63,595 nucleotides of DNA from Escherichia phage vB_EcoS_HdSG1. Both the position numbers and the translations under genes were made by a program. This document shows positions 54,537 to 57,109 of the stretch, one piece after another (position 1 is the stretch's first letter; every line of letters begins with the position of its first letter). A model generated the notes under the pieces. It worked only from the letters and a program-made list of their open reading frames with translations. It ran no database searches and had not been told where the DNA came from. The stretch lies in the sequence record MK373795.1; one strand, 5' to 3'.

Positions 54537-54562
54537 ATGGGCGCATATAGCGCCCATTTTTA
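54537..54562. terminator. bidirectional terminator
   Basis: ATGGGCGC / GCGCCCAT stem, 5-nt loop, TTTTT. Confidence 0.65.
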
Positions 54563-57109
54563 TAACTTAATGACTTCGTTCATTCTCTCAATGTCTACCA
54601 AATAACATTTCATTCTTGGTGGTACAAAATCAGGACCGAATAAACTTGAGAAGTCCATGGGTCTCATTTCGGCAAGAACTTCCATAGACATTAGACCATA
54701 AATTGTGTTATCTATAACCTGCAATATGTTGTCATTTCTTGTCTGCTTGAATGCTTTAAATTGCCTACAATAAGTGCATAAATCACTTCGTGTGACTATA
54801 AATGAGTCCTTAAACATTGGGAACCGTTTATACACGTAAGCCTTTACCTCCCCATCCAAGAACTTCTTGATAGAGTTGAGCATTATTTTCTCACGACTGG
54901 TACTATCTGTAGACCCAATCTGCCCACTATTACGCTTCTCTAAGAAACGCTCGTTACCCTGATCGATAAATGACTCAGCCCAACGATAATGTTCCATAGT
55001 AACAACAGGTCGTTCACTGTTATCCGCAACAGCAAGAAGAGAAGCTATACGCAATACCTTCAGCGCCTTCCTTGTGTACATCTGACGAATTACTTCGTCT
55101 TGTACCTGCTCACCATCATTGCCGCTGTTCAGGAACTTCGCAACAACATTATCAAGGTTATCAAACGCTTCGTGTACCTCTGCTTCCATTTCAACATAAC
55201 ATGGAGTAGTCCCTGACATAATACGCACAGCTTGTTTATAGATAGCTCCAATAGTGCGCAGTATTGCTTCTGGATATTCCAGGAGCATACTCTTATTCAT
55301 CAACGGTCGGTTAGCTGTACATTCCCATGCGATAATACGGGACATGAAACCACTCGACATCATGCGGTCATCCACGTTCCCGTAAAATTCATCTGGTGTC
55401 GTTTCACCTGCAAAACTATACGCCTTAACCTTACCGCCAGCAGTCGTATTATCTTTACTAGAGTGCTTTGAACCACCAGAGAAAGCATAGAAATGCCCCT
55501 TGTCATAAAGGGAAAGCATTTCATCCATAATGTCTTTAGCTTTACCGACTTCCATCTTACCGTTACGGAAAAATGCACCGACTTCAGTCTTATAGTTAAT
55601 GGATGAGCCACAAGACATAACGGACGTATCCATTATGACATCCTTGCGCAATGCAGCATCAGACGCATAGGTACTTGTATCCAAGACACGTTCGATACCA
55701 AATATCTGCTGACCGTCTTGACCGCCATAATTGGATACTTGAGAAAGAATAGTTTCAATGTTGGAGCGAAACGCTTCTTTACCAATACCAGAACGTGCAA
55801 TTAGTACGAAGTAGTTATTCAAACCACTTCGTGTGACTGTGTTCCACGCCTTACCGCACATACCACTAAATAAAGCAAGAGCAGACAGAATACTAATGTC
55901 CTTAATAGGCAACAAGCTCGCTTTATACATATTACGAGCAACCTCGCCCATAAAGCCCGGAGGCCAAGCCAAACCGTCTGCCTGCTCTTCAGTGTAATTG
56001 CCATCTGTGGTCAACACTTCTTCTGGTGGGCGTTCTGGTGTAGTTGCTTGACGTAGTTTTTCCGTGCGCTCTATAGCCGCATTAACGTTATTCTGAACTA
56101 TCTGCATAAGTCCCATAGATTTAACATGGGCATCATAGCGATAGTTGCGAATCATTCTATCCAGGTGATACGGACGTTTGATTTTTTCACCAGGCAGACG
56201 ACGGGAATCATCGTAACGACTACTCATTGGTGAATACATGAACAGACGTCTTACCTGGAAATTGTACTTACTCTTAAAGCAAAGAAAGTCTATTAATGCA
56301 AACTCTGCTTCAGACTGAGAAGGGAAACAACGTTCGCCAATAGAAGTATCAACTTCTTCAGCTCTCCAACGACCTTCCCATAGCTGCTTAAACAATGTTC
56401 CGTTTTCTTGTTCGCACAACTGAATATATACATCCTGGTCTTCCATTGCATATGGGTCGTTACTAAAATCTTCTTCAGTAAGTTCCAGCATTTGGAAGCC
56501 ATCAGACTCATTAATCTCACTCATCTCAGACATAAGTTGATGAATGAGATTAGCGATATACCCTTCGCTTTCACTGCCTGGAGCACCAGACACAGTGCGC
56601 GGAGTAATATCCCAGTGATCACCTGTACAGATAATAAAGCGATACTGTGAATACACTTCCACACCATCTCGGCGCTTACCAGCCTGAGGTATGGAATAAA
56701 TCCATGTGTGCAACCCATCACCGCTTCTGGAAATTTCCGTATAGCTATGGAACGATTCAACAATCTTCTTATATCGCTCACCAGCAACTTTCTTTTCCAT
56801 TTCAGACATGGTATCTTTAATGTCCATGTCGATACAACAGAACGGGTCACTTGGAAGTAGATAGAAACCTAAACGCAAGTTATGGCCAATCTCGTTATAA
56901 TAACGAACGCAGCGTTCAGCATCTTCAAAAGACATAAGTAAATGCAGGTTACACGGTTTCTTATCATTGCCGTCTTTACGAAGTGGGACCATATCCCCTA
57001 AATCATCGTCCCATACATAAGGTTGTTTTTCTGATGATGTACCTGGATGGAAACCGCAGACAGCCCACTGTTCGTATTGTTTAATTTCTTGAGGAAAAAG
57101 TTCCAGCAT
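54560..57109 (-). CDS. primase-polymerase (AEP family) with large C-terminal domain
   Basis: 849 aa; CIDMDIKD (DxD) and SGDGLHTW (sGxGxH-like) motifs. Confidence 0.55.
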   Translation of the reverse strand: MLELFPQEIKQYEQWAVCGFHPGTSSEKQPYVWDDDLGDMVPLRKDGNDKKPCNLHLLMSFEDAERCVRYYNEIGHNLRLGFYLLPSDPFCCIDMDIKDTMSEMEKKVAGERYKKIVESFHSYTEISRSGDGLHTWIYSIPQAGKRRDGVEVYSQYRFIICTGDHWDITPRTVSGAPGSESEGYIANLIHQLMSEMSEINESDGFQMLELTEEDFSNDPYAMEDQDVYIQLCEQENGTLFKQLWEGRWRAEEVDTSIGERCFPSQSEAEFALIDFLCFKSKYNFQVRRLFMYSPMSSRYDDSRRLPGEKIKRPYHLDRMIRNYRYDAHVKSMGLMQIVQNNVNAAIERTEKLRQATTPERPPEEVLTTDGNYTEEQADGLAWPPGFMGEVARNMYKASLLPIKDISILSALALFSGMCGKAWNTVTRSGLNNYFVLIARSGIGKEAFRSNIETILSQVSNYGGQDGQQIFGIERVLDTSTYASDAALRKDVIMDTSVMSCGSSINYKTEVGAFFRNGKMEVGKAKDIMDEMLSLYDKGHFYAFSGGSKHSSKDNTTAGGKVKAYSFAGETTPDEFYGNVDDRMMSSGFMSRIIAWECTANRPLMNKSMLLEYPEAILRTIGAIYKQAVRIMSGTTPCYVEMEAEVHEAFDNLDNVVAKFLNSGNDGEQVQDEVIRQMYTRKALKVLRIASLLAVADNSERPVVTMEHYRWAESFIDQGNERFLEKRNSGQIGSTDSTSREKIMLNSIKKFLDGEVKAYVYKRFPMFKDSFIVTRSDLCTYCRQFKAFKQTRNDNILQVIDNTIYGLMSMEVLAEMRPMDFSSLFGPDFVPPRMKCYLVDIERMNEVIKL

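What the first reader, a model, noticed from the sequence alone, without database searches (positions are those of the whole stretch)
54560..57109. Primase-polymerase alongside a family B polymerase, SF2 helicase, ligase and RNase H: a near-autonomous replication set
The 849-aa protein has archaeo-eukaryotic-primase-type DxD (CIDMDIKD) and sGxGxH (SGDGLHTW) motifs with a large C-terminal domain I cannot assign. With the polymerase (34216..36189), helicase, ligase, RNase H and dUTPase, the phage encodes most of a replisome. The 330-aa unknown gene next to the polymerase (36186..37178) is a candidate processivity or accessory factor.
Basis: partly seen in the sequence, partly recalled or inferred. 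Interest (0 to 1): 0.4.

Follow-up and report, generated by a model that had tools for sequence, protein, structure and literature searches.

The report
Known phage primase-helicase and replication genes
The 849-residue gene is the already-annotated DNA primase/helicase of a phage 9g-type (Nonagvirus) coliphage, made of an archaeal/eukaryotic-type primase-polymerase fused to an MCM-like ring helicase, and it sits in a replication gene set that has been described for this phage group since 2014, so the finding is correct but ordinary.

Summary
ORF 54560..57109 (-) encodes 849 aa with CIDMDIKD and SGDGLHTW. Both motifs are invariant in a 63-member family alignment and align to the catalytic DxD and sxH of the solved phage NrS-1 primase-polymerase.

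The window is a Nonagvirus genome (phage 9g group, Queuovirinae), about 96% identical to JenK1, HdK1 and FritzHoffmann. There the gene is annotated "DNA primase" or "DNA primase/helicase".

The 330-aa neighbour of the polymerase is a three-domain bacterial beta-clamp fold (TM 0.8), so the "processivity factor" guess is right and is already annotated as such. Family B polymerase, SF2 helicase, ligase, RNase H and dUTPase are all confirmed. No clamp loader is encoded.

Verdict: correct, already known, low interest.

The parts
54560..57109 (-). Primase-helicase gene, 849 aa (AEP Prim/Pol + helix-bundle domain + linker + DUF3987/MCM-like AAA+ + winged helix)
   Evidence: ORF. PHROG 3022 'DNA primase' E 1e-245. 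92.6-96.7% nucleotide identity to 17 Nonagvirus records, most annotating it DNA primase or primase/helicase and four leaving it 'hypothetical protein'. AF2 model pLDDT 89.
56582..57109 (-). AEP Prim/Pol catalytic domain, residues 1-176. Motif I D94xD96 (within 56816..56836), SRS loop and motif II S127..H134 (56702..56731), E151/R157/F158 (56621..56668)
56210..56566 (-). Helix-bundle domain (HBD/PriCT-like), residues about 182-300
   Evidence: All-helical in the model. hhalign of the family profile to NrS-1 runs through NrS-1 residue 248, into its HBD, probability 98.9%. The profile also aligns to PDB 7ola through profile position 265. Homologues carry PF22763, the NrS-1 HBD family. The window protein itself does not reach the Pfam threshold for it.
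56042..56173 (-). Long single alpha-helix linker, residues about 313-356
   Evidence: AF2 secondary structure: a helix of 44 residues, pLDDT 64-86.
54920..55981 (-). DUF3987 AAA+ ATPase/helicase domain with MCM-like fold, residues about 377-730. Walker A A438-RSGIGK444-E445 (55775..55798), Walker B E509, beta-hairpin 539-561 before the fourth core strand, S590-R591 (within 55331..55351), R675-Q676..R680 (within 55046..55096)
54563..54904 (-). C-terminal winged-helix domain, residues about 736-849
54536..54558 (-). Terminator-like hairpin immediately after the primase stop codon, between convergent genes
   Evidence: 9-bp stem with 6 GC pairs, followed by an A/T-rich tail. A consensus match only. 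The related SP8 record annotates two terminator features somewhere under the match to this gene, positions not examined.
34216..36189 (-). Family B DNA polymerase, 657 aa, with a 3'-5' exonuclease domain
   Evidence: PHROG 1252 E 1e-228. phmmer hit to S. solfataricus PolB1 (1s5j), E 1.4e-8. Weak Pfam and NCBIfam PolB hits. Exo I-III and motifs A, B, C read in the sequence.
36186..37178 (-). Sliding clamp with a three-domain bacterial beta (DnaN) fold, 330 aa. Its stop codon overlaps the polymerase start codon (ATGA)
   Evidence: PHROG 947 'processivity factor' E 5e-82. TIGR00663 dnaN E 6e-6, below cutoff. AF2 pLDDT 92.7, pTM 0.86. Foldseek top 50 are all beta-clamp structures: 47 DnaN entries plus three chains of entry 8xla, whose description does not name the chain. 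E 1e-20, TMq 0.73-0.82. ATGA overlap read directly.
44364..46367 (-). SF2 helicase, 667 aa
   Evidence: Pfam ResIII, DEAD and Helicase_C. PHROG 16.
46368..47318 (-). Cas4-domain (PD-(D/E)xK) exonuclease
   Evidence: PHROG 1990, E 3e-114.
47381..48310 (-). DUF669-type ssDNA-binding protein
   Evidence: Pfam DUF669. PHROG 6015.
48310..49056 (-). AAA_24 / Sak4-like RecA-type ATPase
   Evidence: Pfam AAA_24, E 7e-23. JenK1 annotation 'Sak4-like ssDNA annealing protein'.
49121..50065 (-). ATP-dependent DNA ligase
   Evidence: Pfam DNA_ligase_A_M. PHROG 114.
50052..50642 (-). RNase H
   Evidence: Pfam RNase_H, E 4e-7, above cutoff.
51144..51662 (-). dUTPase
   Evidence: Pfam dUTPase, E 2e-17.

Best explanation
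The 849-aa protein is the phage's bifunctional replicative primase-helicase. Shown here by computation: an N-terminal AEP Prim/Pol domain with a complete catalytic set, a helix-bundle domain, a long helical linker, a DUF3987 AAA+ ATPase domain with an MCM-like fold and conserved P-loop Lys, Walker-B Glu and 'SR' arginine, and a C-terminal winged helix. Inferred from characterised relatives: it forms a hexameric ring that unwinds the fork using NTP hydrolysis. The helix-bundle domain selects a template site and the initiating nucleotide. The AEP domain makes short primers, which are handed to the phage family B polymerase tethered by the phage beta-type clamp. The clamp gene is translationally coupled to the polymerase gene. 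RNase H and the ATP-dependent ligase mature Okazaki fragments. dUTPase keeps uracil out of the DNA. The SSB, Sak4-like ATPase, Cas4-like exonuclease and SF2 helicase block probably serves recombination-dependent replication or repair. Because a dedicated PolB and clamp are present, the Prim/Pol domain most likely acts as primase rather than as the bulk replicase, unlike in NrS-1. The clamp loader must come from the host, or the clamp loads without one.
Against: No biochemical data exist for any Nonagvirus protein of this family, as far as the papers searched show. The Walker A is deviant, GK[E/D] instead of GK[S/T], in all 63 family members, so ATPase chemistry is assumed, not shown. Helicase polarity is unknown and precedents conflict: BcMCM is 3'->5', the DUF3987 helicase AgaPH is 5'->3'. 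The MCM-type N-terminal OB/zinc collar is absent. HMMER finds no MCM Pfam match, only DUF3987. The Phe at the NrS-1 Y146 position hints at dNTP use, which fits poorly with a phage RNase H if primers are pure DNA. A second helicase (SF2) is encoded, so which one drives the fork is not established.
Confidence: 0.85

Rival explanations
1. The protein is itself the main replicative DNA polymerase, a self-priming replicase as shown for NrS-1. In this reading the family B polymerase serves repair or a secondary role.
For: The Prim/Pol and HBD module is homologous to NrS-1's, which synthesises long DNA de novo (PMC7102993, PMC8718748). An aromatic Phe sits at the position of NrS-1 Y146, which is proposed to favour dNTPs (PMC8718748).
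Against: NrS-1 has no other annotated DNA polymerase. This phage has a complete PolB with exonuclease motifs, translationally coupled to a sliding clamp, which is the usual signature of the processive replicase. The helicase module differs from NrS-1's, which was reported to enhance its polymerisation.
Confidence: 0.07
2. It is a D5-like (SF3) primase-helicase of the vaccinia D5 / phage P4 alpha / NrS-1 C-terminal type, as the first reader suggested checking.
For: It has the same overall logic: an N-terminal AEP followed by a C-terminal P-loop hexameric helicase. Relatives are generically annotated 'primase/helicase'.
Confidence: 0.02
3. It is primarily an origin-binding initiator or helicase self-loader, similar to a phage P4 alpha or pathogenicity-island Rep. 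In this reading the winged helix recognises an origin and the SF2 helicase does the bulk unwinding.
For: A C-terminal winged helix is present. The profile matches PDB 7ola (deposited as 'DNA primase', 797 aa, 12 chains) over the AEP and HBD. A separate 667-aa SF2 helicase is encoded.
Against: This is compatible with the main explanation rather than exclusive of it. No iterons or other origin-like repeats were found in or next to the gene. The SF2 helicase sits in a Cas4/SSB/Sak4 recombination-type block.
Confidence: 0.05
4. It is a component of a conflict or defence system, such as a TOTE-type AEP, rather than a replication protein.
For: A weak Pfam hit to AEP-TOTE, E 4.5e-4.
Against: The hit scores 20.3 bits against a 27-bit cutoff and covers only the generic AEP core, residues 75-138. 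The gene lies in the early replication region and is conserved across 313 phage genomes as primase/helicase.
Confidence: 0.01

Closest known systems
Nonagvirus 'DNA primase' / 'DNA primase/helicase' (JenK1 gp58 YP_009219338, FritzHoffmann bas20_0061, JenP1, JenP2, BRET, ESCO3; phage 9g 9g_00025/26)
   Same: Orthologue: 92.6-96.7% nucleotide identity over the full 2550 bp, the same 849-aa length in most records, and the same neighbours. A protein cluster at 98% identity has 227 member sequences.
   Different: Nothing functional. The 9g record splits the gene into 80-aa and 755-aa CDSs, and SE1 splits it into three. The window's copy is intact.
Phage NrS-1 primase-polymerase (PDB 6a9w, 6jon, 6k9a, 7rr3; PMC7102993, PMC8718748)
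   Different: The helicase module is a different family. NrS-1 has head, DUF5906 (reported as SF3) and tail domains (PMC7102993). The window protein has DUF3987 (MCM-like) and a winged helix, with no detectable similarity between the C-terminal halves. NrS-1 has no other polymerase annotated. This phage has a PolB and a clamp.
DUF3987 family of putative replicative SF6 helicases in phages and mobile elements (Kazlauskas et al. 2016, PMC4889955; 2018, PMC5862659); AgaPH PriCT-DUF3987 helicase (PMC11724360)
   Same: Pfam DUF3987 member above the gathering score. Fused to an AEP primase, with a C-terminal winged helix and a distant MCM relationship, exactly as published.
   Different: AgaPH is a separate polypeptide next to its PrimPol and has a conventional Walker A/B as described. 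This subfamily has GK[E/D] and a single Walker-B Glu. The Pfam model matches only the C-terminal half of the ATPase domain (residues 562-711).
BcMCM, the prophage-encoded AEP-MCM fusion of Bacillus cereus (PMC2715239, PMC3273815)
   Same: Same design: an N-terminal AEP primase-polymerase, an MCM-type AAA+ helicase lacking the canonical MCM N-terminal domain, a hexameric ring, and helicase, primase and polymerase activities in one chain.
   Different: BcMCM was found by BLAST as a true MCM homologue. The window protein matches MCM only at fold and profile-profile level.
Archaeal/eukaryotic MCM (e.g. 3f8t, 4r7z, MCM2-7)
   Different: No OB-fold/zinc N-terminal collar. 10-14% identity. No Pfam MCM hit. 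Deviant Walker A.
Bacterial DnaN beta sliding clamp (for the 330-aa neighbour)
   Same: Three-domain clamp fold, TMq 0.73-0.82 and E 1e-20 to E. coli, P. aeruginosa and S. pneumoniae beta clamps. Annotated as processivity factor or Pol III beta in relatives.
   Different: 13-18% identity. TIGR00663 scores 25.5 bits against a 137.65-bit cutoff, so it is not a DnaN equivalog. It is about 35 residues shorter and is partnered with a family B rather than a family C polymerase.

Membership tests
AEP superfamily, PrimPol-type (NrS-1-like) primase-polymerase | Motif I, DxD metal-binding aspartates | tested here: met
   D94 and D96 are invariant in 63/63 sequences and align to NrS-1 D78/D80.
AEP superfamily, PrimPol-type (NrS-1-like) primase-polymerase | Motif II, sxH nucleotide-binding histidine | tested here: met
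   G132-L-H134 with H invariant. It aligns to NrS-1 G113/H115.
AEP superfamily, PrimPol-type (NrS-1-like) primase-polymerase | Motif III acidic residue on the following strand | tested here: met
   E151 is invariant and D148 is 90% conserved. E151 aligns to NrS-1 E139. Which one is the third metal ligand was not resolved.
AEP superfamily, PrimPol-type (NrS-1-like) primase-polymerase | AEP (Prim/Pol) fold | tested here: met
AEP superfamily, PrimPol-type (NrS-1-like) primase-polymerase | Ser-rich loop replacing the zinc finger (NrS-1 S108-P-S110) | tested here: met
   S127-R-S129. S127 is invariant and S129 is present in 59/63.
AEP superfamily, PrimPol-type (NrS-1-like) primase-polymerase | Helix-bundle domain following the catalytic domain (PF22763) | tested here: inconclusive
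   The region is helical and hhalign extends to NrS-1 residue 248. PF22763 is present in homologues at about 30% identity, but the window protein has no hit at E<=0.01. NrS-1 HBD residues R249, K251 and Y261 could not be aligned.
AEP superfamily, PrimPol-type (NrS-1-like) primase-polymerase | De novo primer synthesis and DNA polymerase activity | not testable with these tools
   Needs purified protein.
DUF3987 / SF6 (MCM-like) AAA+ helicases | Pfam PF13148 match above the gathering score | tested here: met
   29.7 bits against a 27-bit cutoff, residues 562-711. Family members score 44-52 bits.
DUF3987 / SF6 (MCM-like) AAA+ helicases | P-loop (Walker A) lysine between the first core strand and its helix | tested here: met
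   A438-RSGIGK444, with G443 and K444 invariant, located between a strand and a helix in the model. It is deviant: the residue after Lys is Glu (54/63) or Asp (9/63), not Ser/Thr.
DUF3987 / SF6 (MCM-like) AAA+ helicases | Walker B acidic residue | tested here: met
   E509 is invariant at the end of the third core strand. Only one acidic residue is conserved, where the canonical motif has two.
DUF3987 / SF6 (MCM-like) AAA+ helicases | Arginine finger and sensor-2 arginine | tested here: inconclusive
   S590-R591 before the fifth core strand, and R675-Q676..R680 in the lid, are invariant. They resemble the MCM 'SRF' and sensor-2 motifs as I recall them. Their assignment was not verified by a residue-level superposition.
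DUF3987 / SF6 (MCM-like) AAA+ helicases | MCM-clade AAA+ fold (core plus lid) | tested here: met
DUF3987 / SF6 (MCM-like) AAA+ helicases | C-terminal winged helix | tested here: met
Canonical MCM (PF00493 with N-terminal OB/zinc domain) | Pfam MCM match and MCM N-terminal OB-fold/zinc collar | tested here: not met
   No PF00493 hit even at E<=10 for five family members. The region before the AAA+ core is one long helix and a short hairpin. So it is MCM-like, not an MCM.
D5-like SF3 primase-helicase | D5_N / Pox_D5 / DUF5906-type SF3 helicase core | tested here: not met
Hexameric replicative helicase (function) | Ring oligomer and NTP-driven unwinding with defined polarity | not testable with these tools
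   Precedents only: BcMCM 3'->5' (PMC2715239), AgaPH 5'->3' (PMC11724360).
Bacterial-type beta sliding clamp (330-aa gene 36186..37178) | Three tandem clamp domains forming a half ring | tested here: met
   AF2 pLDDT 92.7 and pTM 0.86. Top 50 Foldseek hits are all beta-clamp structures: 47 DnaN entries plus three chains of entry 8xla, whose description does not name the chain. TMq 0.73-0.82 over about 370 columns.
Bacterial-type beta sliding clamp (330-aa gene 36186..37178) | NCBIfam DnaN equivalog score | tested here: not met
   TIGR00663 scores 25.5 bits against a 137.65-bit cutoff. It is a divergent phage clamp (PHROG 947), not a DnaN orthologue.
Family B DNA polymerase (34216..36189) | Exo I/II/III and polymerase motifs A, B, C | tested here: met
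   Exo motifs D73xE75, N122..Y126-D127 and Y220..D224. Polymerase motifs D370VTSYYP and K420..NGSYG. Motif C is SANTDG, with N in place of the first D of DTD. The palm aligns to 1s5j, E 1.4e-8.

The most novel reading that the evidence does not exclude
The most novel reading not excluded is a hybrid replisome that has not been reconstituted. In it, an MCM-fold helicase with a non-canonical P-loop (GK[E/D]) translocates 5'->3' on the lagging strand, like the one characterised DUF3987 helicase. Its fused PrimPol lays down DNA rather than RNA primers, as the Phe at the NrS-1 Y146 position would suggest. These primers are handed to an archaeo-eukaryotic-type PolB riding a bacterial-type beta clamp that is loaded without any phage clamp loader. 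All of this would take place on a genome that becomes 7-deazaguanine-modified.
Probability: 0.15. Interest if true: 0.4.

Novelty: already known. Interest (0 to 1): 0.1.

Why it matters
It matters little as a discovery. The gene and its partners are annotated in at least 17 near-identical phage genomes. The replication set was listed in the first phage 9g paper (2014). The AEP-DUF3987 (MCM-like) fusion was described as a class of phage replicative primase-helicases in 2016.

The work here adds a domain-level description for Nonagvirus. The Prim/Pol and HBD module is NrS-1-like, but the helicase module is MCM-like rather than the SF3-type module of NrS-1. The neighbouring 330-aa protein has a beta-clamp fold.

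Queuovirinae include well-used model phages (BASEL collection) with deazaguanine-modified DNA. A biochemical reconstitution of this compact PolB, beta-clamp and AEP-MCM replisome could therefore be a useful, tractable system. That would be incremental rather than surprising.

Tried and rejected
1. D5/SF3 assignment of the C-terminal domain was rejected.
2. A direct Pfam MCM (PF00493) hit was looked for in five C-terminal domains at E<=10. None was found, only DUF3987. MCM-likeness therefore rests on fold searches and on published HHsearch results.
3. A profile-profile test against an MCM alignment was not run. No MCM sequence could be obtained without guessing one, and I ran no further search on it.
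A tblastn query with the wrong frame failed and was redone.
5. The defence-system reading was rejected: the AEP-TOTE hit is below threshold and the context is replication.
6. A search for origin-like repeats or promoters around the gene found nothing above chance. Promoter-like sites: 9 found against 11.2 expected. Only weak two-copy repeats were seen.
7. A clamp-binding-motif search (QL[SD]LF-like) in PolB, primase, ligase and RNase H gave only two internal, unconvincing matches in PolB.
8. ARAGORN's single tRNA-Ala lies antisense inside the polymerase gene and is taken as a false positive.
9. Numbering slip: alignment A1 and both AF2 models were made from references that cut off the start codon, since on the minus strand the start is at the high coordinate. 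Residue numbers are therefore one lower than the true ones. All numbers in this report are corrected and were verified.
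Full report
**1. Observation.**

The ORF exists exactly as stated: 54560..57109, minus strand, ATG start, 849 codons, no internal stop.
- A Shine-Dalgarno-like AAGG lies 7 nt upstream of the start. The preceding gene ends 9 nt upstream.
- A bare DxD occurs three times in the first 300 residues, so the pattern alone means little.
- In an alignment of 63 homologues down to 29% identity, D94, D96, S127, G132, H134, E151 and R157 are invariant.

Numbering: I built that alignment and both structure models from references that dropped the start codon. 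Residue numbers printed are therefore one lower than the true numbers. All numbers here are corrected and were verified by translating the coordinates.

**2. What the window is.**

- Positions 1-3363 are identical to 60233-63595, so the window is a 60,232-bp genome plus a wrap-around or terminal redundancy.
- The primase gene is 92.6-96.7% identical at nucleotide level to 17 records of the genus Nonagvirus (Queuovirinae; the phage 9g group). Among them it is most often annotated 'DNA primase' or 'DNA primase/helicase'. Four records (SP8, HdK1, PD328, SE1Kor) leave it as hypothetical protein(s).
- The whole 24.9-kb early region is 96.1% identical to HdK1 and JenK1.
- The JenK1 RefSeq annotation lists, in the same order and orientation: DNA polymerase, DNA polymerase processivity factor, the deazaguanine (dG+) genes, DNA helicase, Cas4-domain exonuclease, SSB, Sak4-like protein, DNA ligase, RNase H, dUTPase, a resolvase and DNA primase. 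The FritzHoffmann annotation is equivalent.

**3. N-terminal half: an NrS-1-like Prim/Pol.**

Sequence evidence:
- PHROG 3022 'DNA primase' matches end to end (E 1e-245).
[quoted passage not shown] The family profile hits it at 1.5e-19.
- The profile also hits 7ola, deposited as 'DNA primase', at 2e-33 over profile positions 7-265.
- hhalign of the family profile against full-length NrS-1 polymerase, which I took from AB746912, gives 98.9% probability over NrS-1 residues 10-248. That span covers the catalytic domain and part of the helix-bundle domain.

Residue equivalences, NrS-1 to window:

| NrS-1 | Window | Conservation in the family |
|---|---|---|
| D78 / D80 | D94 / D96 | invariant |
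| S108-P-S110 | S127-R-S129 | S127 invariant, S129 59/63 |
| H115 | H134 | invariant |
| E139 | E151 | invariant |
| R145-Y146 | R157-F158 | R157 invariant; position 158 is Phe 56/63, Tyr 7/63 |

- Y146 sits next to the sugar 2' position, and Phe at this position is suggested to make priming more exclusively dNTP-dependent (PMC8718748).

Structure evidence:
- The AlphaFold2 model has mean pLDDT 89.
- The six best Foldseek hits in the PDB are NrS-1 N300 structures (E 1e-10).

The AEP assignment stands.

**4. C-terminal half: an MCM-like DUF3987 helicase, not D5-type.**

- Pfam gives DUF3987 just above its gathering score (29.7 against 27 bits, residues 562-711). Family members score 44-52 bits.
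- Model layout:
  - a 44-residue helix (313-356) and a short hairpin;
  - an alpha/beta core with A438-RSGIGK444-E445 between the first strand and its helix;
  - invariant E509 at the end of the Walker-B strand;
  - a conserved hairpin (539-561) before the AYSFAGETTP strand;
  - invariant S590-R591 before the next strand;
  - an all-helical lid with invariant R675-Q676 and R680;
  - a winged-helix domain (736-849).
- Foldseek hits 7-50 are almost exclusively archaeal and eukaryotic MCM subunits (E 2e-6 to 1.6e-4, probability 1.00).
- No SF3 helicase (E1, large T antigen, D5, NrS-1 C-terminal region) appears among the 50 and 60 matches the two searches listed.
- NrS-1's own C-terminal region is a different module: head domain, DUF5906 and tail domain, classified by its authors as SF3 (PMC7102993). 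It gives no hhalign match to this family and only a trivial local alignment.

So the same Prim/Pol and HBD cassette is joined to different helicase cassettes in the two phages.

This matches the literature. Kazlauskas et al. 2016 identified phage DUF3987 proteins as divergent SF6 (MCM-like) helicases, often fused to AEP primases and ending in a winged helix, and predicted them to be replicative helicases (PMC4889955; also PMC5862659). A PriCT-DUF3987 protein was later shown to be an ATP-dependent 5'->3' helicase that binds its partner PrimPol (PMC11724360). The Bacillus cereus prophage protein BcMCM is an AEP-MCM fusion with helicase (3'->5'), primase and polymerase activities and a hexameric ring (PMC2715239, PMC3273815).

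By tblastn, the C-terminal domain occurs in 313 phage records (Pseudomonas, Escherichia, Vibrio, Stenotrophomonas, Xanthomonas and others). Most are annotated primase/helicase.

Limits of the MCM analogy:
- no Pfam MCM hit at HMMER level;
- no MCM-type OB/zinc N-terminal domain;
- a deviant Walker A in which the residue after the lysine is Glu or Asp in all 63 sequences.

**5. The rest of the set.**

- *Polymerase (34216..36189).* It is a family B enzyme: PHROG 1252 and a phmmer hit to S. solfataricus PolB1. Exo I, II and III and motifs A and B are readable in the sequence. Motif C is SANTDG.
- *The 330-aa gene (36186..37178).* Its stop overlaps the polymerase start (ATGA).
  - It matches PHROG 947 'DNA polymerase processivity factor'.
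  - It matches TIGR00663 (DnaN) weakly, below cutoff.
  - Its model (pLDDT 92.7, pTM 0.86) superposes on bacterial beta clamps with TM about 0.8 and E 1e-20.
- *Other genes confirmed*:
  - SF2 helicase: ResIII, DEAD and Helicase_C
  - Cas4-like exonuclease
  - DUF669 SSB
  - AAA_24/Sak4-like ATPase
  - ATP-dependent ligase
  - RNase H
  - dUTPase
- *Clamp loader.* None is annotated in the related genomes, and none was found among the proteins I scanned.

**6. Mechanism.**

Shown by computation: domain architecture, catalytic residues, folds and gene context.

Inferred from characterised relatives:
- The protein forms a hexameric ring that unwinds the fork.
- The HBD and AEP prime the exposed strand.
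- Primers pass to the PolB and beta-clamp.
- RNase H and ligase finish the lagging strand.

Open points: helicase polarity, whether primers are RNA or DNA, ATPase chemistry with GK[E/D], how the clamp is loaded, and the division of labour with the SF2 helicase.

**7. Verdict.**

The finding is accurate. Its interpretation is supported, and the unassigned domain is now assigned. However, it is a near-identical copy of an annotated gene, in a described phage genus and a described protein class. Novelty: already known. Interest: low.

Noticed in passing
window 1-3363 and 60233-63595: The two ends of the window are 100% identical over 3363 bp, so the unit genome is 60,232 bp. This is either an assembly wrap-around or the direct terminal repeat that the phage 9g paper inferred but could not size (PMC4276943).
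   Followed up: partly
window 55775-55798 (residues 438-445 of the primase-helicase): The Walker A motif is A-R-S-[AG]-h-G-K-[E/D]. An acidic residue replaces the canonical Ser/Thr after the P-loop lysine in all 63 family members (Glu 54, Asp 9). Only one Walker-B acid (E509) is conserved. NrS-1 has GKQGTGKG, also without Ser/Thr. The consequences for Mg/NTP binding are unknown (PMC7102993).
   Followed up: partly
window 34216-37178 and the whole early region: A bacterial-type beta clamp is translationally coupled (ATGA overlap) to a family B polymerase, yet no clamp loader is annotated in this phage group. Loading by the host gamma complex, or loader-independent loading, is implied.
   Followed up: partly
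window about 34770-34790 (PolB residues 468-474): Polymerase motif C reads SANTDG instead of the usual YxDTDS: Asn replaces the first Asp. Conservation across the PolB family was not examined.
   Followed up: no
L003 (phage 9g KJ419279, 19683-22231) and L004 (Salmonella phage SE1 NC_042025): The orthologous gene is annotated as two CDSs in the 9g record (80 aa 'hypothetical' plus 755 aa 'DNA primase', with the break just before the catalytic DxD) and as three CDSs in SE1. HdK1 shows four. The match in 9g is one base shorter than the query, which points to frameshift or sequencing errors rather than real splits. The window's copy is intact.
   Followed up: partly
window 50052-50065 (ligase/RNase H junction): In JenK1 and FritzHoffmann an HNH/homing endonuclease gene (531 bp and 345 bp) lies between the RNase H and ligase genes. 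In the window the two genes abut and overlap by 14 nt, so the endonuclease is absent. This is a presence/absence polymorphism typical of homing elements.
   Followed up: no
window 37187-42427: The 7-deazaguanine (archaeosine, dG+) DNA-modification cluster lies between the clamp/polymerase genes and the SF2 helicase block. It comprises a DpdA-like transglycosylase, FolE, QueD, Gat-QueC and QueE. It is a known hallmark of Queuovirinae.
   Followed up: partly
window 34619-34692 (+): ARAGORN calls a tRNA-Ala(TGC) antisense inside the polymerase coding sequence. It is most likely a false positive, and no tRNA is annotated there in relatives.
   Followed up: no
window 54302-54558: A small plus-strand ORF (76 aa) converges on the primase gene. 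A 9-bp-stem hairpin (54536-54558) sits between the two stop codons and could act as a bidirectional terminator. The related SP8 record annotates two terminator features somewhere under the match to this gene; their positions were not checked.
   Followed up: no
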